Source: an uncultured Gemmatimonadales bacterium | Lineage (GTDB): Bacteria; Gemmatimonadota; Gemmatimonadetes; Gemmatimonadales; GWC2-71-9 | Direction of reading: 5' to 3' | NCBI GenBank assembly: GCA_963711915.1 | Contig: CAVQGA010000019.1 | Location: forward strand, 19,186 to 83,185 | Length of the DNA: 64,000 nt | Shown here: positions 53,624 to 64,000 of the stretch, in pieces | How positions within the stretch are numbered: position 1 is the stretch's first letter | How the letters are laid out: every line of letters begins with the position of its first letter | Position numbers and translations under genes: made by a program | The notes under the pieces: generated by a model | What the model saw: the letters and a program-made list of their open reading frames with translations, nothing else | What the model was told of the DNA's origin: nothing | The model's database searches: none

Positions 53624-56505
53624 GGCACCAGCGCCCGGCCCGGCGGGGCCAGCTCGACCTCGCGGGTCCAGCTCCGGCCGTCGGCGCGCGCCACCAGCAG
53701 GCCGAGCGGCACGAATTTGGGACCGAGCGGCCAGGGAGGCGCCGGAAGCGTGAAGTCCGCCGTCGCGGTGGCGTGCGGCGCGATCGTCTGCTTCGTCGTG
53801 TCGGCCCGGGCCAGCACCACGGAGGTGTCGGCGTAGACCCGGATCGAGGTGCGGAGGCTCCAGCGCTGGTCACCGCTCGCGTCGGCGAAGCCGGGGAACA
53901 GGCCCAGCGTCACGGGAACGTCGCCGTGGCCCTCGGGCAGCTCGACCTGCAGCCGGCCGAAGGCGTAGTTGAGCGGCTGCTTTCCGAGCTGGTGCCCGAG
54001 CGAGTCGAACAGAGTCACGCCGAAGTCGGTGAACCGGTCCCACTGCGCCCGGTCCATCGTGATGTCCACCACCACGCCGCGGGACCAGCGCGGGACGACG
54101 AACGGAATCCGCTGTTCCGCCGAGCCGGTGGCCGAGACGCTCTCGACCCGGGCCGCGCCGCCGAGATGCATCCCCACCTGAGCCTCGACCGGAACGGCGG
54201 TGACGTTGGTCAGCGAGGCGCGCACCGACTCGCCGCGGCGCGTCGCGCGCAGCAGGAGCGGCGACTGGCTCACGCTCACCGAGGCGGTGAGGGCCTGGTT
54301 GGGCGGTGCCACGACCACCGCCTCGTATGGGCCGGTCACGACGTCCCGCGAGTCGGCCTCGTACTCGGCCGATTGCGGGCCGAAGCCGGCGGGGCGCGCG
54401 CTCTCGTCGCGGAACGGCATCCCGTCGGGCTCGTGCAGGAAGGCCAGCGCGCGGTCGGCGCGCCCGCCGGTCTCGACCGTGAGCAGGAAGGGCCGTCCGC
54501 TGTCCGCCTGGAAGAAGGTCCGGAGCGTCGTGCCCGCGCGGAGTGTCACGCTGTCGCGGAGCTTCTGCGTGCCGGCCGCGAGCGGCGCCGCCGCGGCCAC
54601 CGTAGTGACCAGGCGGAACGCGGGTCCGGCCATCGAATCGCCGGTCCAGCCGGTGACCGTCCCGACGTAGGCGCCGGGGGCCGCGAGGCCGCGGCGCGCG
54701 ACCTTGAGCCGGACCGCGGTCCGCGGGCCGCGCAGCGCGAGCGTCGCCGGCGCGGTGAGCCAGGGCGCGTCGCTTCGCAGGGCGTAGGTGGTCGCCGGCG
54801 CCCCGGCCGGCGCCTCGATCTCGAACTCCTGCACCGTGTCCGTCGTGCCCCCGACGCCGCGCAGCAGCGCGCCCGAGACGTCACCCGGGCCGACGGCGCG
54901 GACCTGGAGGTCGGGGACCGGAGCCGCGGTCGACAGCCAGCGGTAGGCGCGATCCACGTCGGCGAGCCCCGAGCCCTCGTCGATGATCGTGGCACCCGGC
55001 GTGGGCTGGGCGGTCACCATCAGCGCCTGGCGGATGTCGCGGGCCGTGGGCGTGCGCCCCGCCGGCTTCATCGCCGACAGGAGCAGCGCGACGATCCCGC
55101 TCGCGTGCGGCGCCGCCATGCTGGTGCCCTGCTCCACCTCGTCGCCCGCATTCCAGGCCGGCACGGTGCTGTAGGCGACACCGGGCGTCACGAGGTCGGG
55201 CCGGGTGAGCTCGCCGCCGCGCGCGCTGAAGTACGCGAGCAGGTCGGCCGACGGCGCGCCGTTGACGCCCGGCGGGAGGAAGCTGCCCGGCAGCGTGGCG
55301 CCGACGCTGAGCGCGCGGATGGCGCTGCCGGGGGCGCCGATGGTCGAGAGGCCGGGCCCGTCGTTGCCCGCGCTGATCGCGAGCACGATCTCCGGGTGCT
55401 GGCCCAGCACCGAGTCCACGAGCTCGTCGATCCGCGCCTGGCCCTCGATCTGGTTGCCGACGCCGAAGCTCATGTTGAGCACGAGCGGCAGCCGGCGCGC
55501 CTGGGCGAAGCGGATGGCATAGTCGATCGCCCGGAGCTTGCTGCCGGTGGTCGAGATGCCGCCTTGCGCGTCGTTCGCGATCTTGAGGCCGAGGAGCTGG
55601 GCGCCCGGCGCCACGCCGTTGAACCCGGGAACGCCGTAGAGATCGTGCCCCGCGGCGATGCCGGAGACATGTGTCCCGTGGCCGAAGGTGTCGAAGAAGA
55701 GATCGAGCGTCGGCGCGCCGCCCTGCTCGCCGAGGTTGGCCGCGACGTTGACCTTGGGCACGGCGCCCTTGGGCGCCCAGCCGAAATGCTCGCGGCCGGC
55801 GAGGTAGTCGCGGACCGGCCGCTCGCCGGCGAGCGAGCCGTCGCCATCGGTATCCGCCACGAGCACCCAGCCGTCGCTGGCGCGGACCACCACGATGGGC
55901 AGCGTGTCCCGCACCGCGCCGTTCCCGTTGAGGTCCGCGGCCGGCAGCTCGCCCAGCGGGATCTCGGCGATGGTGCCAGCGTAGTACGGTCCGGCGGTGT
56001 TGAGCCCCGCGACCCGGCCGAACCCGCCGAGGGTGTGCCCTCCGATGTCCACCGAGTCGCCGCGGGGCGTCACCCGGGCGAGCGCGACGGCGCCTTCGCC
56101 CGAGAAATCCCGCAGGTCGAGAATCTTGGGATTGCCGGTGCTGGTGCTCTCGAGCCCGGCAACGCCCGGATCGATGCCGGTATCGATGATGCCGATGAGC
56201 ACGCCGCGGCCGTCGAAATCGGGGTGGGCGCGCAGGAACCGGTCCACGCCGGTGCTGGCGAGCGGCATCCAGCCGTGGGCATACGCCACGGCCGGCGGCG
56301 CGACCCGTCGCACCGAGTCGTGGGCCGGCGCGGCGGCCGGGCCGGTGTCCGGCCTGACCGCGGCGGGCCGGCGCAGCGACACGGAGTCGGCGCGGGGCGC
56401 GGGCACCGGCGCCGAGGCTTCGTGGTGCCCCGGAGCGCAGGCAAGGGCGAATATGAGGGCACCGGCGAAGAGACGCGTCGGGGGCATGCGAGTCCTAGGG
56501 AGCAT
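53620..56505 (-). CDS. Secreted S8-family (subtilisin-like) serine peptidase, large multi-domain
   Basis: [13 protein letters not shown] (Asp), [11 protein letters not shown] (His), [11 protein letters not shown] (Ser). Start at [25 protein letters not shown]; the upstream 43 codons of the track ORF are REP sequence. Confidence 0.9.
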
Positions 56506-56530
56506 CACGGAGGTTCGTTGACAGCATGGT

Positions 56531-56612
56531 GTCATCCCGAGCGGAAGCGAGGGATCTACTCGCCCGGGTTCGAACTCGGCCCAGCAAGATCCCTCGCTCC
56601 GCTCGGGATGAC
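56531..56612. repeat. REP/MITE-like element, copy 8 (same subfamily as copy 2)
   Basis: GTCATCCCGAGCGGAAGCGAGGGATCT...AGATCCCTCGCTCCGCTCGGGATGAC. Confidence 0.85.
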
Positions 56613-56667
56613 AGAGGACAGGTGACAGCCGCAAGGGACAGCCCTCCGCCCGACCACGTGACTCCCA

Positions 56668-58311
56668 TCAGCGAAGGGAGGCCGAGTCCTGCGGCGGCAG
56701 CACGAACGGACCGAGGTGGGGCCCGGCGAAATTGGCGGCGACGCGCAGGGCGAAGGCGAGCAGGTCGCGGGTCTCCTCGGGCGTGACGATCGCGTCCACG
56801 TGGCCGCGCGCGGCGGCGTAGCGCGCGTCGAGCTGGGCCTCGTAGTCGGCGCGCATGGAGTCGACCGACGCCTTGACCTCGGGCGCGATCTCGCGCCGCT
56901 CGCGCTGGGCGCGCTCGATCTCGGGGCCGTGGACGGCCATCACGGCGGACTCGCCCTCCATCACGCCCATCCGGCCGGTGGGCCAGGAGAGGATGAAATC
57001 GGGATCGAACCCCTGCCCGGCCATGGCGTAGTAGCCGGCGCCCGAGGCGTGATTCACGGTGAGAACGAGCTTCGGCACCAGGGCGGTGGCCATCGCCTCG
57101 ACGAACCTCGCGCCGGCGCGGATGATGCCGCTGTGCTCGGCCTCGGGGCCGACCATGAACCCGCTCACATCCTGCACGAAGAGAATGGGCAGGTGCTCGC
57201 GGTTGGCCGTCTCGATGAAGTAGGCCACCTTTTCGGCGCTGCCGGTGTAGACGATCCCGCCGAAGCGGGGGCGCTCGTCCGGGCGGCCCTTGATGACGCC
57301 GCGCTGGTTCGCGATGACCGCCACGGGCCAGCCCTCGATGTGCGCGTGCCCGCAGATCATCTCGCGGGCCACGCCAGGCTGGAACTCGTCCAGCGCGCCG
57401 CCGTCGAGCAGGGCCTCGAGCACGTGGCGCATGTCGTAGGACAGCCGGTGGTCCCGCGGCAGCATGTCGTACAGGCTCTCGGGCGGGCGCGACGGGGGCA
57501 GCGGTGAGCGGACCTGGTGCCGGATGCCGTCGAGCCGGGGCAGCCGTGCGACATACTCGCGGATCCGGACGAGGCAGTCGGCGTCATTGGCCGCGCGGTA
57601 GTGCGCGACGGCGCTCAGCTCGGTGTGGGTCACCGCCCCGCCCAGCGTCTCGGCGTCGATGGTCTGGCCGGTGGCGCCCTTCACCAGGTTCGGGCCGCCG
57701 AGGCCCATGAAGGTCGTTCCCTCGACCATGAAGATGACGTCCGACAGCGCGGGCAGGTACGCGCCACCGGCGATGCAGCTCCCCATCACCGCGCTGATCT
57801 GCGGCACGTGCAGGTAGCGCCGCATGATCGAGTTGTAGTAGAAGATCCGGGCGGCGCCGTACTGGCCCGGAAAGACCCCGCCCTGGTAGGGCAGGTTCAC
57901 CCCGGCGCTGTCCACGAGATAGATGATGGGAATCCGCTGGCGCATGGCGACTTCCTGCGCGCGGAGGATCTTGCGGATGGTCTCGGGCCACCAGGAGCCC
58001 GCCTTCACCGTGGCGTCGTTGGCCACGACGACCGCTTCGCGGTCCCCGACCACGCCCACGCCGGTGATCACGCCCGCGCCGGGTGCCTGACCGTCGTACT
58101 GATCGTAGGCCACCAGCAGCCCGAGCTCGAGCCAGGGCGAGCCCGGGTCCAGCAGGCGCTCGACCCGCTCGCGCGGCGCGAGCTTGCCCTGCTGGTGCAT
58201 CTTGGCGACGCGCGCCGCTCCGCCGCCGGCGCGGAGGCGCTCGGCCAGGGTGCGGTACTCGTCGGTGAGCGCCCGGAGGCGGCTCACCGCTCGAGGTGTT
58301 CGGACGCCCAC
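56668..58311 (-). CDS. Acyl-CoA carboxylase carboxyltransferase (beta) subunit (MccB/AtuC/PccB-like)
   Basis: [28 protein letters not shown]...[41 protein letters not shown] at 58287 (GTGA overlap) is an alternative start. Confidence 0.9.
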
Positions 58312-58712
58312 GAGGTGATGTAGGTGACGAGATCCGACGTGGGCGTCCCCGGCCCGAACAGCCGGCCGACGCCCCGGGCGCGCAGTGCCTCCATGTCGTC
58401 GGCCGGGATGATCCCTCCGCCAGTGACCAGGACGTCCGGCCGGCCCATGTCGTCGAGCAGTTGCCGGACGCGAGGAAACAGCGTCATGTGGGCGCCGCTC
58501 AGGATCGAGAGCCCGACGACGTCCACGTCCTCCTGCACCGCCGCGGTGGCGATCATCTCGGGCGTCTGGTGCAGGCCGGTGTAGACCACCTCCATGCCGG
58601 CGTCGCGCAGCGCCGCCGCCACCACCTTGGCCCCGCGGTCGTGGCCGTCGAGCCCCGGCTTGGCGACGAGCACGCGGATCGGCCGCGCCGGCGGCCGGAC
58701 AGCAGCAGTCAT
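58284..58712 (-). CDS. Cobalamin-binding subunit of methylmalonyl-CoA mutase-family enzyme
   Basis: [57 protein letters not shown] (DxHxxG B12 motif). Confidence 0.92.
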
Positions 58713-59413
58713 GAGGCCAATCTCTCCTTGAGCAGGTCGTCCACCAACGCGCCGAGGGAGCCGACGGCGGCGCAGCCGGGCGGCGCCGAGGCCCCCGGGG
58801 GAACGAGCAGCACGGCCGGAATCCCGGCGGCGTTGGCGCCGATCACGTCCACGTCGTACAGGTCGCCCACGTAGAGCGCCTCGGAGGCCCGGACGCCGAG
58901 CACCTCCAGCGCGGCCCGGAAGATAGCCGGATCGGGCTTCTCCACCCCGGCCAGAGTCGAATCCACGACCACGTCGAAGTACCCCCTGAGACCGGAGGCC
59001 TCGAGCGCTTCCTCGACCCGGCCGTCGCTGTTCGAGACCACGCCGAGGCGGAGTCCGGCCCCGCGCAGGCGCGCGAGCGCGTCGTGGGTGTCCGCGGCGA
59101 TGCCGGTCCAGAGGTGGCCCTCGGCGTGCAGCCGCGTGAGCGTATCGCGGACCTTGTCGAGACGGGCCGCGGGGACGCCGGCCGCGAGGAAGAGCGCTTC
59201 CAAGTATGCCGCGGCGCGCTCCCGGTCGGTCGCGCGGGCCCGCTCCATGGAGCGCGCCGCGATCGACCGGCCCTCGGCCAGCCCGGCCCCGGTGAGCGGC
59301 AGACCCACCGCCGCGCCGACCGCGTCGGCCATTCTCCCGTAGTCGAGAAAGAGCAGCGTGTTGCCGGCATCGAACAGCACCGCCCTCAGTGGAACGCGCG
59401 TGTCGGTCGTCAC
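58709..59413 (-). CDS. HAD-superfamily hydrolase (subfamily IA)
   Basis: [10 protein letters not shown] (motif I), VVSNSD (II), [27 protein letters not shown] (IV). Confidence 0.85.
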
Positions 59414-59417
59414 GCGC

Positions 59418-60554
59418 TCAGCGGAAACGGAGCAGTCCGGCCAGGCCCTCGACCGAGGTGCGGGCGTCGGGCTCGTAGACGACGTTCACCTCGACCCCCT
59501 GGCGCAGGGCCTCTTCGATCGCGTCGTCGACCACGTCGAGCACCGCCAGCGGCTCCCCTTCGTCCCGGCACTCGCGCTCGGTCCGCGCCAGGCGGCCCGA
59601 CTCGCCGCAGCGGAATCCCGGCTCGCTCGCGTCGGCGTCGACCAGGAGCGAGCGCACCTGGCCGCGCGCCAGGGCGCGGAGGGTGCGGTCGAGGCCGTTC
59701 ACCGCCCACCCGCTGCCGAGACCCTCGAGCATCTCGTGCACGGCCGCGCGCTCGGACTCGCGCTCCCAGGCCTCCCGCACGGCCAGCGTGGCGGCGTGCA
59801 CCGCGGCCGGCGTGGCCTCCTTCAGGTTGAGCCGCGCCGTCCCGATGACGCGCTCGACCAGGTAGTTGTGCAGGAACGGCTCGACCGCCCGGGCCTCGCT
59901 GCCCGTGCCGGCGAGCACCAGCCCGTGGGCCGGCTGCCGCCGATCGATGGCGAACAGCTCGCGGGCCACGGCCTCGAAGTGGCGCTGCTTCTCCTGGCGG
60001 ATCCGGTTGTGGTAGGTGTGCTCGCCCCACATCGTGCCGGCCTGACCCCCGCGGAAGCGCCTGCCGCGGGTGTTGTCGGCCCGCAGCCCGGACAGCTCCC
60101 GGGTCTCGTAGGCCGTGACCTCGAAGAACCGGGCCGCGGTCCGGTCGAGCACCACGGTCAGCAGCCGTCCGAACTCCTCCTCGACCGACGCCAGCTCGCG
60201 CACCAGCGGCGAGCGGTCCACGGCGAGACGCGAGCGGTGAACGACCGGCAACGCCAGGGCCTCGAACAGGCCGATCCCCTCGCACGCGAAGATCGCGAGC
60301 CCCTGGGTCGAGGGCAGGTTGTTCGGCGTGCGGACATACTGCTGGACCCGGTCGAGGTCGCGCGCGATCTCCTCCTGGATCGGGCGCTCGAGCCCGAGCC
60401 GCGGCAACGCCTGCATCGCGGCCCGGACCCGGTTCTTGAGCTTGATGAGGTATTTCCCGCGGCTCCGATCCCGCGGCTCGAGCTTCAGGTAGCAGGTCAC
60501 CACGCGGTGCGGCCCGACCTGGACCGCCGTCAGCCGCGCGAGCCGCTCCGCCAC
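59418..60554 (-). CDS. Bacterial eRF1/Pelota-like (baeRF-type) protein with GGQ motif
   Basis: Real part of track ORF 59418..61352, starting at GTG 60554 after GAAGGAGG. Three-domain layout with FRGGQAG (about 60042-60050) and a C-terminal ...GLDRTLRALARGQVRSLLV...VVDDAIEEALRQGVEVNVV resembling the eRF1/Pelota domain 3. Confidence 0.65.
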   Translation of the reverse strand: MAERLARLTAVQVGPHRVVTCYLKLEPRDRSRGKYLIKLKNRVRAAMQALPRLGLERPIQEEIARDLDRVQQYVRTPNNLPSTQGLAIFACEGIGLFEALALPVVHRSRLAVDRSPLVRELASVEEEFGRLLTVVLDRTAARFFEVTAYETRELSGLRADNTRGRRFRGGQAGTMWGEHTYHNRIRQEKQRHFEAVARELFAIDRRQPAHGLVLAGTGSEARAVEPFLHNYLVERVIGTARLNLKEATPAAVHAATLAVREAWERESERAAVHEMLEGLGSGWAVNGLDRTLRALARGQVRSLLVDADASEPGFRCGESGRLARTERECRDEGEPLAVLDVVDDAIEEALRQGVEVNVVYEPDARTSVEGLAGLLRFR

Positions 60555-60621
60555 GGCCGGCGCCGCCTCCTTCGCCCGTCCCCGCCCGTTGCCGCCCGGC
60601 TTGAGCGCCGTCCGCCTGGCT

Positions 60622-62330
<1,709 letters not shown>

Positions 62331-62334
<4 letters not shown>

Positions 62335-63407
62335 ATCCGTTCGCCTTGTTTGAGCCCTTCGACCACCTCGGCCGCCACCTCGTACGGACTCACCCGCCCC
62401 GCCACGATTTCCTCCAGCCGGCCGGCGATGCGCTCGTCCGCGCGGGTCTCGTCCCAGACCCAGCGCCGGGTCGCGCGGTCCACGACCTCGCGCGTGCGGT
62501 CGAGCAGGCGCCGCCGGCGCCGCTCGGCGAGCGTGCCGCTCCGGGCAAGCCACTCGTGGTGCCGCTCGAGCGCCTCGATCAGCTCGGCGACGCCTTCGCC
62601 TTTCGCCGCGACCGTGAGGACCACGGGCTGCTGCCAGGGCGGCGCGGCGGGCGGCGAATCGAGGGGGGTCTCGCCCGCGCCGTTGCCGGCGCCCTCGGCC
62701 CCGCGGGCCACGCGCACGCCGGCCCGGATGCCGTGGTGCGCCGGGACGTGGCGGAACGCGTTGCCCCGGCGGATGCCGAGCGTGATCTCGATCTCCTGCC
62801 GCAGCTTCTCGGCGCCCGGGCGGTCGGCCTTGTTGACGACGAACAGGTCGGCGATCTCCATGATGCCGGATTTGAGGGTCTGGATCCCGTCGCCGGACTC
62901 CGGTACCAGCACGAGGACGGTCGCGTCGGCCATGCGGGCCACGTCCAGCTCGGACTGCCCGACGCCGACGGTCTCCACCAGGATGCGGTCGAATCCCGCC
63001 GCATCGAGCAGGTCGCAGACCTCGCGGGTGGTCGTGGCCAGGCCGCCCAGCGAGCCGCGGCTCCCCATGGAGCGGATGTACACCCCCTGGTCGAGCGCCA
63101 CGGATTCCATGCGGATGCGGTCGCCGAGCAGGGCGCCGCCGGTGAAGGGGCTGGTGGGGTCCACGGCGACGACGGCGACGCGGAGCCCGGCCTGTCGGTA
63201 GGCCCCGATCAGGCGTTCGACGAGCGTGGATTTGCCGGAGCCCGGCGGCCCGGTGATCCCGATGCGGCGCGCCCGGCCAAGCAGGGGGTGGGCCTCGGCC
63301 AGCAGGCGCTCGAATCCGGGCCGGCCGTTCTCGACCACCGAGATCGCGCGTGCCAGGGCGGCCGTATTGCCGGCCTGCAGGCCCGCGAGCAGGAGGTCGG
63401 GATCCAT
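62331..63407 (-). CDS. meaB: Methylmalonyl-CoA mutase-associated G-protein chaperone MeaB/ArgK
   Basis: [19 protein letters not shown]...[24 protein letters not shown]...VVNKADR. ATG 63407. Confidence 0.9.
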
Positions 63408-63454
63408 GCTGAAAAGTCGCCTGCCGCCGGGGCGGAGGCAAGCGAGCGGCAGGC

Positions 63455-64000
63455 TCACCCGGCGTCGTCCGCCGAGTCGTCTATGTGCAACTCCTTCTTG
63501 GCGGTCCAGTTGATGATGACCACCAGGAAGACGCCCACAACCAGGGCGCCGAGGAGCCAGAGCTGAACCCGGCGGACCTTGCCCAGCAGCAGCGTGGCGC
63601 TGCCGCTCACGAGGTACCCCAGGCCCGTGAACACCCCGGCGCCGACCACGGCGCCGATGCCGTCGATCGCGACGAACTTGGCGAGGGCCAGATTGTGGAG
63701 TCCCCAGAACAGCATGCTCGCGGCCTTGGTCCCGTAGACGAACCGGGCGGCGATGAGCTCCGCCGGGCCCATCCGGCGCGCCAGCGCCTCGATCCGATGC
63801 CCGACCCGGCGGTACAGCCCTCCCGCCCGGAACCGGGGTCCCCGCACCCGGCCGAGGGTGTACCAGGCGAGATCGCCGACGAAGCTGCCGATGGCGCCGG
63901 CGCCGACGGCGAGGGCGAAGGGGAAGTAGCCGAGATGGGCGGCCACGCCGGCCAGGATCAGGGTGAAATCACCTTCGATGGCGGAGCCCAGGAGCACGGC
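63455..64000 (-). CDS. DedA/SNARE-associated family membrane protein (probably N-terminally truncated by the window edge)
   Basis: [19 protein letters not shown]...[17 protein letters not shown]; multi-TM. The frame is open to the right edge. Confidence 0.6.

What the first reader, a model, noticed from the sequence alone, without database searches (positions are those of the whole stretch)
59418..60554. eRF1/Pelota-like GGQ protein embedded in a B12-mutase / acyl-CoA catabolic operon
A 378-aa protein with a three-domain eRF1/Pelota-like organisation and an FRGGQAG motif sits between the mutase large subunit and a HAD hydrolase. GGQ is the catalytic peptidyl-tRNA hydrolysis motif of class I release factors. 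The protein is co-directional and tightly spaced with both neighbours. Bacterial archaeo-eukaryotic release-factor homologs (baeRF families) are described mainly from conflict or ribosome-rescue contexts, so a conserved position in a metabolic operon would be unusual. It also splits the two mutase subunits.
Basis: partly seen in the sequence, partly recalled or inferred. Interest (0 to 1): 0.6.

Follow-up and report, generated by a model that had tools for sequence, protein, structure and literature searches.

The report
Balon-like ribosome factor inside mutase operon
The gene is a real, conserved bacterial relative of release factor eRF1. It most resembles the Balon proteins that park idle ribosomes. 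Its GGQ motif is a one-lineage accident rather than a catalytic site, and the only unusual feature is that a whole branch of Gemmatimonadales keeps the gene between the two halves of a vitamin-B12 mutase.

Summary
It lies between the mutase large subunit and a HAD hydrolase, and it contains FRGGQAG.

- **Family:** it passes Pfam baeRF_family10. Its nearest solved relatives are the Balon ribosome hibernation factors, with Msmeg1130 best by profile (E 2.5e-34) and by fold (TM 0.68-0.71). aRF1 comes next.
- **GGQ:** only 2 of 110 unique orthologues at the same genomic position have it. Most read GDQ, relatives at 89-91% identity read SDQ or SAQ, and the loop length varies from 8 to 21 residues. 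The constant element is G177-E178-H179. E178 aligns with the glutamine of GGWSQ in distant family-10 members.
- **Neighbourhood:** a mutase large-subunit gene lies directly upstream in 109 of 117 readable loci, across two Gemmatimonadales families. This appears to be one lineage-specific event.
- **Other copies:** paralogues sit beside HPF-cold-shock fusions, BON, Hsp20 and RtcB. Homologues in other classes sit in an M19-NYN-RtcB cluster.

Most likely this is a non-catalytic A-site ribosome factor made together with a catabolic operon. No biochemical test was possible. This scan has already reported the same arrangement in at least eight other genomes.

The parts
59418..60554 (-). Gene for a 378-aa baeRF family-10 / Balon-like protein (GTG start, TGA stop included)
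   Evidence: Translation. Pfam PF18854, 54.4 bits against a cut-off of 27.1. Profile against PDB: Msmeg1130 Balon E 2.5e-34, aRF1 E 7.4e-27. AF2 model pLDDT 94.3. Foldseek: Msmeg1130 TM 0.68-0.71.
60210..60554 (-). N-terminal domain (residues about 1-115), with the conserved motif EPRDRxRGKYLIKLKNR; no NIKS motif
   Evidence: Secondary structure of the model. Conservation among 81 orthologues. In the alignment to aRF1, its NIKS segment falls opposite a non-conserved stretch.
59775..60209 (-). Middle (RNase-H-fold, eRF1 domain 2-like) domain, residues about 116-260; this is the part matched by the Pfam model
   Evidence: PF18854 matches residues 116-260.
60021..60080 (-). Loop of the middle domain (residues 159-178) that corresponds to the GGQ loop of eRF1. 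It has lower model confidence, and its length and sequence vary among orthologues.
   Evidence: DSSP shows coil at 159-174 with pLDDT about 70. Loop length between F167 and E178 is 8-21 residues in 110 orthologues. Longer loops occur in genera g3, g8 and g9.
60042..60050 (-).
   Evidence: GGQ in 2 of 110, GDQ in 52 of 110. Position 170 is D in 85 and G in 4. Position 171 is Q in 58, R in 19 and N in 9. Closest relatives read SDQ or SAQ.
60018..60026 (-). Codons of G177-E178-H179, the truly conserved element of the loop. E178 is invariant and aligns with the Gln of GGWSQ in distant family-10 members.
   Evidence: E178 in 110 of 110, G177 in 107, H179 in 96. Alignment A1 columns.
59421..59774 (-). 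C-terminal (eRF1 domain 3 / Pelota-like) domain, residues about 261-378. It has a two-strand insertion (313-338) carrying the near-invariant C316 and C329, probably a degenerate zinc ribbon.
   Evidence: Near-invariant columns in A1. Strands 313-315 and 336-338 in the model. The profile consensus shows CxxC...CxxC in some relatives.
60566..60573 (-). Shine-Dalgarno-like GAAGGAGG, 11 nt before the GTG start, inside the 67-nt spacer after the mutase stop
   Evidence: Sequence read directly.
60622..62334 (-). B12-dependent acyl-CoA mutase, large (substrate-binding) subunit; its ATG overlaps the MeaB stop
   Evidence: PF01642 E 2.7e-224. TIGR00641, 760 bits. Start read.
62331..63458 (-). MeaB, the G-protein chaperone of the mutase
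   Evidence: PF03308 E 5.6e-93. TIGR00750, 328.6 bits against a cut-off of 240.75.
58709..59413 (-). HAD-IA family hydrolase; starts 4 nt after the stop of the Balon-like gene and is dispensable in about 30% of orthologous loci
   Evidence: PF00702 and PF13419. Adjacent in 74 of 105 readable loci.
58284..58712 (-). Mutase small subunit (B12-binding domain)
   Evidence: PF02310. TIGR00640, 175 bits against a cut-off of 57.
56668..58311 (-). Acyl-CoA carboxylase carboxyltransferase (beta) subunit; overlaps the end of the B12 subunit gene
   Evidence: PF01039 E 7.3e-126.

Best explanation
The gene encodes a three-domain bacterial homologue of aeRF1, a divergent member of Pfam baeRF family 10.

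**Proposed mechanism.** It most likely works like Balon. It would occupy the ribosomal A site and reach the peptidyl-transferase centre with its middle-domain loop, without releasing the peptide. It would thereby silence or protect ribosomes when growth stops.

**The GGQ.** The tripeptide in this genome arose by a recent Asp/Ser-to-Gly change in a variable loop and is not a functional release motif.

**The location.** In one branch of Gemmatimonadales the gene was fixed between the large and small subunit genes of a B12-dependent acyl-CoA mutase. It is therefore probably transcribed with a MeaB-mutase-carboxyltransferase catabolic operon. That could tie production of the factor to growth on, or starvation-type use of, propionyl- or branched-chain acyl-CoA substrates.

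**Shown:** family, fold, non-conservation of GGQ, conserved gene order, and the stress-type context of paralogues.

**Inferred:** ribosome binding, lack of catalysis, co-transcription, and any physiological link to the mutase pathway.
For: **Family and fold**
- PF18854 scores above its cut-off. There are weak full-length hits to all three NCBIfam Balon-type hibernation-factor models.
- A profile of 60 homologues finds Msmeg1130 Balon first in the PDB (E 2.5e-34, residues 7-380). Next come aRF1 (7.4e-27), Rv2629 Balon (9.3e-20), P. urativorans Balon (2.5e-14) and Pelota (5.6e-14).
- The AF2 model (pLDDT 94.3) superposes best on ribosome-bound Msmeg1130: TM 0.68-0.71, against 0.49 for aRF1 and about 0.4 for Pelota.

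**The loop**
- GGQ is found in 2 of 110 orthologues, and the loop length varies from 8 to 21 residues. Burroughs & Aravind (PMC6514570) associate this pattern with non-catalytic baeRF-1 families.
- Balon, Rv2629 and Msmeg1130 also lack GGQ and NIKS (PMC10901736).

**Genomic context of other copies**
- Sister paralogues in the same bacterial family lie beside HPF-cold-shock fusions, BON/OsmY-like proteins, Hsp20 and RtcB.
- Homologues in other classes lie next to RtcB.
- These are the neighbourhoods reported for Balon genes.

**Synteny with the mutase**
- The mutase large subunit lies directly upstream in 109 of 117 readable loci. The B12 subunit lies downstream in 97 of 105. This holds down to 42-51% protein identity and in a second family, f3.
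- Gene spacing is tight: a 4-nt gap to HAD and overlapping starts elsewhere.

**Copy number**
- This is the only family member in a 99.6%-complete genome.
Against: - No experiment or ribosome-binding evidence exists for this clade.
- Scores against the NCBIfam Balon equivalogs are far below their cut-offs: 53 against 330, 48 against 480 and 37 against 320.
- The Balon-specific HP motif, bL27 trap and EF-Tu hairpin could not be identified here.
- The loop carries an invariant G-E-H, usually P-G-W-G-E-H, at the position of the eRF1 GGQ region. That degree of constraint is unlike what Burroughs & Aravind describe for the non-catalytic families. It could mark an activity of its own.
- The metabolic context is not the stress-operon context described for Balon.
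- The quick tree indicates one origin of the mutase linkage, or at most two. Conserved order may therefore be inheritance rather than selection.
- A nested subclade lost the mutase genes from the locus yet kept this gene with HAD, the carboxyltransferase and the S8 peptidase.
Confidence: 0.65

Rival explanations
1. It is an active peptidyl-tRNA hydrolase or ribosome-rescue factor, as Burroughs & Aravind suggested for baeRF family 10. It would use either the local GGQ or the conserved (P)GWGE loop to release peptides from stalled ribosomes.
For: - Family 10 was singled out as retaining a conserved catalytic-loop glutamine (PMC6514570).
- Distant members of alignment A1 carry QGGWSQxRYQRH. This lines up residue for residue with GGQSAQRFARL of aRF1.
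- E178, at the position of that Gln, is invariant in 110 of 110 orthologues, and G177 is present in 107.
- This genome happens to have a literal GGQ in the same loop.
- From general knowledge, not tested here: in bacterial release factors the two glycines matter more for catalysis than the glutamine side chain.
Against: - GGQ itself occurs in 2 of 110 orthologues, with Asp at the second position in 85.
- The Gln of the family-10 core motif is replaced by Glu throughout this clade.
- The Gly-Gly pair before Trp is Pro-Gly in most orthologues and Thr-Met in this genome.
- Loop length is not constrained.
- There is no NIKS-type stop-codon motif.
- The closest solved relatives are the non-catalytic Balon proteins.
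Confidence: 0.15
2. The protein is an ordinary Balon-type factor, and its place in the mutase operon has no functional meaning. It would be a single ancestral insertion, together with the HAD gene, that has simply been inherited.
For: - The linkage is confined to families f1 and f3 of one order. The tree does not exclude a single origin.
- The sister family f2 has MeaB and the mutase large subunit with no such insert and no B12 subunit downstream.
- HAD was lost from 31 of 105 loci.
- One subclade lost the mutase genes but kept this gene.
- Paralogues and distant homologues are never mutase-linked.
Against: - Gene order is retained across protein divergence down to 42% identity, in more than 40 genera and 109 of 117 loci.
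- In every case the gene splits the two subunits of one enzyme, and the spacing is tight. That is longer retention than neutral gene order usually shows.
- Genomes that hold a second, stress-locus paralogue still keep the mutase-linked copy.
Confidence: 0.45
3. The protein has left the ribosome and acts on the mutase pathway itself, for example as an assembly or regulatory partner of the split mutase or of the HAD hydrolase.
For: Only its position between the two subunit genes and the tight coupling to the HAD gene.
Against: - All three eRF1 domains are retained, together with the basic helix after the loop (NRIRxEKQRH) and the C-terminal LLRFR that is shared with aRF1 and Msmeg1130.
- The gene persists where the mutase genes have gone and where HAD has gone.
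- Mutase operons in the sister family work without it.
Confidence: 0.04

Closest known systems
Balon ribosome hibernation factors: Msmeg1130 of M. smegmatis (PDB 8v9j, 8v9l), Rv2629 of M. tuberculosis (8v9k), Balon of Psychrobacter urativorans (8rd8, 8rdv, 8rdw); Helena-Bueno et al. 2024, PMC10901736
   Same: - Three-domain aeRF1 fold.
- Best profile hit (E 2.5e-34, full length) and best structural hit (TM 0.68-0.71).
- No conserved GGQ or NIKS.
- Paralogues of this gene sit with HPF, Hsp20, OsmY-like BON and RtcB genes, as reported for Balon.
   Different: - Only 16-19% identity in the structural alignments.
- Far below the NCBIfam equivalog cut-offs.
- Carries an invariant G-E-H loop element and two conserved cysteines in the C-domain insertion. 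Msmeg1130 lacks both in the alignment.
- This copy sits in a metabolic operon, not a stress operon.
- HP motif, bL27 trap, EF-Tu hairpin and ribosome binding were not verified.
Pfam PF18854 baeRF_family10 (bacterial aeRF-1 clade, family 10; Burroughs & Aravind 2019, PMC6514570)
   Same: Scores above the gathering threshold (54.4 against 27.1 bits). All 60 aligned homologues match it, with a best E-value of 1.9e-46. The full three-domain architecture is present.
   Different: The family's noted feature is a well-conserved catalytic-loop glutamine. In this clade it is an invariant glutamate (E178), and the preceding Gly-Gly is not kept.
Archaeal and eukaryotic class-I release factor aRF1/eRF1 (for example PDB 4af1, 3agk, 1dt9)
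   Same: Homologous over the full length (E 7.4e-27), with the same domain order. Some relatives keep the CxxC...CxxC zinc ribbon in the C domain. The C-terminal LRF/LRY motif is shared.
   Different: - No conserved GGQ and no NIKS.
- Lower structural agreement (TM about 0.5).
- Bacterial host that should already have RF1/RF2 (not checked here).
Pelota/Dom34 ribosome rescue factors
   Same: Same superfamily, and a non-catalytic middle-domain loop.
   Different: Weaker and only partial similarity (E 5.6e-14 over residues 176-310; TM about 0.4). The N-terminal domain is of a different type.

Membership tests
Pfam baeRF_family10 (PF18854) | HMM score at or above the curated gathering threshold | tested here: met
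   54.4 bits against 27.1, residues 116-260. All 60 of 60 aligned homologues match.
Pfam baeRF_family10 (PF18854) | Three-domain aeRF1 architecture (N domain, RNase-H-fold middle domain, Pelota-like C domain) | tested here: met
   Full-length alignments to aRF1 and Msmeg1130. AF2 model pLDDT 94.3. Foldseek hits.
Pfam baeRF_family10 (PF18854) | Well-conserved glutamine in the catalytic loop (Burroughs & Aravind 2019) | tested here: not met
   Q171 is present in 58 of 110 orthologues, and GGQ in 2 of 110. The column aligned with the Gln of GGWSQ in distant members is Glu in 110 of 110.
Balon-type ribosome hibernation factors (NCBIfam NF052287, NF052288, NF052289) | Score above the equivalog cut-off | tested here: not met
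   53.3 against 330, 48.0 against 480 and 37.1 against 320 bits.
Balon-type ribosome hibernation factors | aeRF1-like fold closest to solved Balon structures | tested here: met
   8v9j_z: E 4.5e-24, TM 0.68-0.70. 8v9l_z: TM 0.70-0.71. 8rdw/8rd8/8rdv: TM 0.60-0.64. 8v9k: TM 0.60-0.62. Profile E 2.5e-34.
Balon-type ribosome hibernation factors | Absence of the GGQ and NIKS motifs as conserved features | tested here: met
   GGQ in 2 of 110 orthologues. There is no NIKS, and the aRF1 NIKS segment aligns with a non-conserved stretch. This one genome does spell GGQ.
Balon-type ribosome hibernation factors | HP motif in the N domain, bL27-trap loop in the middle domain, EF-Tu-binding beta-hairpin in the C domain | tested here: inconclusive
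   A two-strand insertion (residues 313-338) stands at the expected C-domain site. No residue-level structural alignment to Balon was available, so the HP motif and bL27 trap could not be located.
Balon-type ribosome hibernation factors | Binds the A site of 70S ribosomes and inhibits translation | not testable with these tools
   Needs biochemistry or cryo-EM.
Balon-type ribosome hibernation factors | Typical location in stress-response operons (RaiA/HPF, Hsp20, OsmY, RtcB) | tested here: not met
   This copy lies in a MeaB-mutase-carboxyltransferase operon. Its paralogues and distant homologues do have the typical context.
Class-I release factor aRF1/eRF1 | Conserved GGQ in the middle-domain loop | tested here: not met
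   2 of 110; closest relatives read SDQ or SAQ.
Class-I release factor aRF1/eRF1 | NIKS-type stop-codon recognition motif in the N domain | tested here: not met
   There is no NIKS in the sequence. The aligned segment is not conserved.

The most novel reading that the evidence does not exclude
In Gemmatimonadales, a Balon-type ribosome-silencing factor has been wired into a B12-dependent acyl-CoA catabolic operon. Ribosome shut-down or protection would then be induced together with a starvation-type carbon pathway. The clade-specific invariant (P)GWGE-H loop would be a new way for an eRF1-fold protein to engage the peptidyl-transferase centre.
Probability: 0.3. Interest if true: 0.5.

Novelty: new member of a known kind. 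Interest (0 to 1): 0.3.

Why it matters
Balon was described only in 2024, and its relatives are uncharacterised outside Psychrobacter and mycobacteria. A clade in which the sole Balon-like gene is co-encoded with a catabolic enzyme would be a natural system for asking how ribosome hibernation is coupled to metabolism in slow-growing soil bacteria. The negative result also matters. A literal GGQ in an eRF1-fold protein is not evidence of release activity unless orthologues keep it. Here they do not.

Tried and rejected
- **EF-Tu complex.** Complex prediction was run with this genome's EF-Tu (L142:1501-2700) and residues 116-378 of the protein. It returned no verdict, with score 0.00. This says nothing either way.
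- **Sequencing runs.** 21 runs hold parts of the stretch, and two of them are metatranscriptomes with 6-7% of the words. When laid, the RNA contigs fell almost only on the conserved part of the mutase large-subunit gene. Near-identical pieces lay at 61336-61667 and 62040-62318. None usefully covered or bridged the Balon-like gene, so nothing can be said about co-transcription. Identical DNA contigs do bridge both gene junctions (59401-59771 and 60339-60689), but they may come from the source sample.
- **The look-up of encoding contigs.** Neighbourhoods of homologues outside the phylum could therefore not be sampled, and independent mutase linkages elsewhere remain untested.
- **Rfam.** At gathering thresholds over the whole window it found only two tRNAs. 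There is no cobalamin or other riboswitch.
- **Promoter and terminator scan, 56400-64000.** No promoter-like site was found. One weak terminator-like hairpin lies at the mutase stop, which is no more than expected by chance.
- **Sequence search of the PDB.** A single-sequence phmmer search found only aRF1 4af1, at E 8.4e-4, and aligned GGQ with GGQ. The profile search shifts the aRF1 GGQ three to five residues downstream. The loop alignment is therefore ambiguous, and I rest the argument on conservation instead.
- **Balon paper supplements.** The supplementary text held for the paper has no mention of Gemmatimonadota or of a mutase. No paper linking Balon to a mutase operon was found.
- **Tree.** The careful tree search did not finish in the time allowed, so the quick IQ-TREE result was used. 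The branch joining the stress paralogues to the f1 mutase-linked clade has only 86% SH-aLRT support. The order of duplication and relocation is therefore not settled.
- **The 410-aa start.** This upstream ATG start, used in many database records, was considered and rejected. It lies inside the mutase coding region, whereas the GTG start has a strong Shine-Dalgarno sequence.
Full report
**1. The observation**

The coordinates 59418-60554 hold a real open frame, but on the minus strand. The plus-strand reading is a low-complexity artefact of the high G+C content.

- The frame begins with GTG at 60554. GAAGGAGG precedes it by 11 nt, and it ends with TGA at 59418-59420.
- It encodes 378 residues and contains FRGGQAG (G169-G170-Q171).

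The minus-strand gene order is as follows:

| Gene | Coordinates | Junction with the next gene |
|---|---|---|
| VTT/DedA-like membrane protein | 63455-63997 | 4-nt overlap with MeaB |
| MeaB | 62331-63458 | ATGA overlap |
| Mutase large subunit | 60622-62334 | 67-nt spacer |
| This gene | 59418-60554 | 4-nt gap |
| HAD-IA hydrolase | 58709-59413 | 4-nt overlap |
| B12-binding small subunit | 58284-58712 | overlapping |
| Carboxyltransferase | 56668-58311 | followed by an S8 peptidase |

Many database homologues are annotated at about 410 aa. Their extra N-terminus starts from an ATG inside the mutase coding region. I take the GTG start as the real one.

**2. What the protein is**

- Pfam assigns it to baeRF_family10: 54.4 bits against a gathering threshold of 27.1. 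Families 2, 3 and 12 give weaker hits.
- NCBIfam gives only sub-threshold but full-length hits to the three Balon-type 'ribosome hibernation factor' equivalogs.
- A search of 1.84 billion cluster representatives found 2110 relatives at E ≤ 0.001. I aligned 60 full-length ones (A1), and all 60 match PF18854.
- The A1 profile searched against PDB sequences gives this order:

| PDB hit | E-value |
|---|---|
| Msmeg1130 Balon (residues 7-380 of the profile) | 2.5e-34 |
| aRF1 4af1 | 7.4e-27 |
| Rv2629 Balon | 9.3e-20 |
| aRF1 3agk | 3.1e-18 |
| eRF1 structures | about 1e-14 |
| P. urativorans Balon | 2.5e-14 |
| Pelota | 5.6e-14 |

- An AlphaFold2 model built on A1 is confident (pLDDT 94.3, pTM 0.85). 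The one softer stretch is the loop at residues 160-180.
- Foldseek against the PDB ranks ribosome-bound Msmeg1130 first (E 4.5e-24, TM 0.68-0.71). It is followed by aRF1 (TM 0.49), P. urativorans Balon (0.60-0.64), Rv2629 (0.60-0.62), eRF1 (about 0.5) and Pelota (about 0.4).

The three-domain eRF1-like organisation is therefore confirmed. The nearest characterised relatives are the Balon hibernation factors (Helena-Bueno et al. 2024, PMC10901736).

**3. The GGQ**

- Among the 119 closest cluster representatives with a readable loop (at least 77% identity), 83 read GDQ and only 2 read GGQ. One of those two is a fragment of the window's own protein.
- Relatives at 89-91% identity read SDQ or SAQ.
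- Among 110 unique orthologues at the same genomic position, including this one, GGQ occurs twice. Position 170 is Asp in 85 and Gly in 4. Position 171 is Gln in 58, Arg in 19 and Asn in 9.
- The number of residues between F167 and E178 ranges from 8 to 21. Several genera have much longer loops.
- What is constant lies a few residues further on: G177 (107 of 110), E178 (110 of 110) and H179 (96 of 110), usually as P-G-W-G-E-H.
- In the wider alignment, distant family-10 members read QGGWSQxRYQRH. This matches GGQSAQRFARL of aRF1 almost position by position. In that register E178 of this clade stands where those members have Gln.

Burroughs & Aravind (PMC6514570) had already pointed out that family 10 keeps a conserved glutamine and might be catalytic. 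They also noted that most baeRF-1 families lack it and show unconstrained loop lengths. The clade in this window behaves like the second group, except for its invariant G-E-H.

The literal GGQ here is thus a recent change in a variable segment. The pairwise alignment that put it opposite the aRF1 GGQ is not backed by the profile alignment.

**4. The neighbourhood**

- A scan of species-representative genomes returned 80 loci, all labelled Gemmatimonadales or Gemmatimonadota except one labelled as a Bacillota MAG. They share 60-83% identity with the query.
- A search of 301 genomes of the phylum found the gene in 117 of 125 genomes of the window's own family (f1) and in 3 of 3 of family f3. In the sister family f2 it gave only weak hits, in 6 of 69 genomes.
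- I annotated 118 orthologous loci with the window's neighbouring proteins as queries; 109 of these loci are unique.
  - The mutase large subunit lies directly upstream in 109 of 117 loci where the flank can be read.
  - The B12 subunit follows in 97 of 105.
  - The HAD gene is present in only 74 of 105.
- The arrangement extends to family f3 at 42-48% identity and to genera with 47-51% identity and long loops.
- Eight loci (seven unique) lack MeaB, the mutase and the B12 subunit but keep this gene with the carboxyltransferase, and in all but one (L111) also the HAD gene. The four of them placed in the tree form one nested subclade. In the loci examined, unrelated transporter genes lie upstream.
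- In family f2, MeaB and an orthologous large subunit (72% identity) are followed by unrelated genes.

The linkage is therefore real and old, but it belongs to one lineage. The quick tree does not exclude a single origin.

One locus in these counts (L083, genome G057) comes from an unpublished genome. G057, G182 and G097 also enter the tallies. No conclusion depends on them.

**5. Paralogues and distant homologues**

- Eleven second copies in family f1 (40-47% identity) form a well-supported clade next to the mutase-linked one. None is near a mutase.
- Their neighbours are a fusion of a ribosomal S30AE/HPF domain with a cold-shock domain, a three-BON-domain protein, Hsp20, RtcB and a histidine kinase.
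- Four further copies match only the middle and C-terminal domains. They lie next to, or within about 2 kb of, the HPF-cold-shock gene.
- Six homologues from other classes of the phylum (25-31% identity) share a conserved cluster: M19 peptidase, NYN/YacP-like nuclease, this gene, then RtcB.
- These are the contexts reported for Balon genes: RaiA, Hsp20, OsmY and RtcB. A 2025 preprint adds that chimeric HPF genes often lie beside Balon genes (10.1101/2025.11.04.686544).
- The window's genome is 99.6% complete. It has only the mutase-linked copy and one canonical short HPF next to hprK.

**6. Most likely mechanism**

By homology and fold, the protein should bind the ribosomal A site as Balon does. 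The N domain would sit at the decoding centre, the middle-domain loop would point towards the peptidyl-transferase centre, and the C domain would face the factor-binding site. I expect no peptide release, because the release motif is not kept.

Placement in the operon, tight spacing downstream and a separate strong ribosome-binding site suggest co-transcription with the mutase genes. Production would then follow the expression of an acyl-CoA catabolic pathway.

All of this is inference. I put the non-catalytic ribosome-factor reading at about 0.65 and a catalytic role for the conserved GWGE-H loop at about 0.15. Whether the operon position has adaptive meaning is close to even odds.

**7. Comparison, novelty and score**

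The protein family (baeRF family 10, Balon-like) and the caveat about its catalytic loop are already in the literature. I found no paper that mentions a mutase-operon location.

Earlier agents of this scan have reported the same arrangement on at least eight other genomes and reached the same reading. I reached it here independently before looking.

I class it as a new member of a known kind, with an unusual conserved context, and score interest at 0.3. The tools that led nowhere are listed under Tried and rejected: EF-Tu complex prediction, RNA runs, the closed contig look-up, Rfam and the promoter/terminator scan.

Noticed in passing
L124:8230-9012 (-); also L121:2386-3003, L123:5061-5729, L127:4947-5552, L156-L159: Paralogues of the Balon-like gene lie beside a chimeric protein that joins a ribosomal S30AE/HPF domain to a cold-shock domain. 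In L124 the two genes overlap. A 2025 preprint reports that chimeric HPF genes are often adjacent to Balon genes.
   Followed up: partly
L156:3353-4120, L157:5064-5807, L158:5062-5829, L159:5018-5761: In genera g8, g9 and g21, the second copies match only residues about 123-378 (middle and C domains). They sit next to, or within about 2 kb of, the HPF-cold-shock gene. They may be two-domain forms that lack the N-terminal domain.
   Followed up: no
L115-L120 (families f11 and f12 of the phylum): Distant homologues (25-31% identity) share a conserved cluster: M19 dipeptidase, YacP-like NYN nuclease, the baeRF gene and RtcB RNA ligase. L115 shows no M19 match and L116 no RtcB match; the L116 contig is only 4.8 kb.
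   Followed up: partly
L067, L068, L069, L072, L076, L104, L105, L111: One subclade has lost MeaB, the mutase large subunit and the B12 subunit from the locus. It keeps the Balon-like gene with the carboxyltransferase, and in all but L111 the HAD gene too; the S8 peptidase is seen where the flank is long enough. In L067, L068 and L076, SulP or MgtE transporter genes lie upstream.
   Followed up: partly
window 60622-62334 (-): The mutase large subunit reads ...PTMYRGRLW... and ...KEYMAQHAW.... As I recall, these are the positions that distinguish methylmalonyl-CoA mutase (Tyr, Arg) from isobutyryl-CoA mutase (Phe, Gln). The Tyr-plus-Gln mix suggests the substrate may not be methylmalonyl-CoA. 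This rests on memory of the literature and was not tested.
   Followed up: no
window 60555-60653 (-) and proteins P0003-P0015: Most database homologues are annotated about 32 residues longer, from an ATG inside the 3' end of the mutase gene. The apparent conservation of that extension (MAAIGSRS...) reflects the overlapping mutase reading frame.
   Followed up: partly
window 63455-64000 (-): A VTT/DedA-family membrane protein gene overlaps the MeaB start by 4 nt. The co-directional, overlapping gene string therefore runs on beyond the end of the window.
   Followed up: no
L133:3169-3621 (-) (family f2 genome G257): In the sister family, the gene after the mutase large subunit is convergent and 150 aa long. 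By eye its sequence looks like a BLUF-type blue-light sensor. There is no B12 subunit nearby, so the split mutase is organised differently there.
   Followed up: no
L144, L145, L146, L148 (families f4 and f8): Profile matches to homologues in these genomes each include one in-frame stop codon (TGA or TAG) within the matched span. I did not check whether these are match over-extensions, broken genes or recoding.
   Followed up: no
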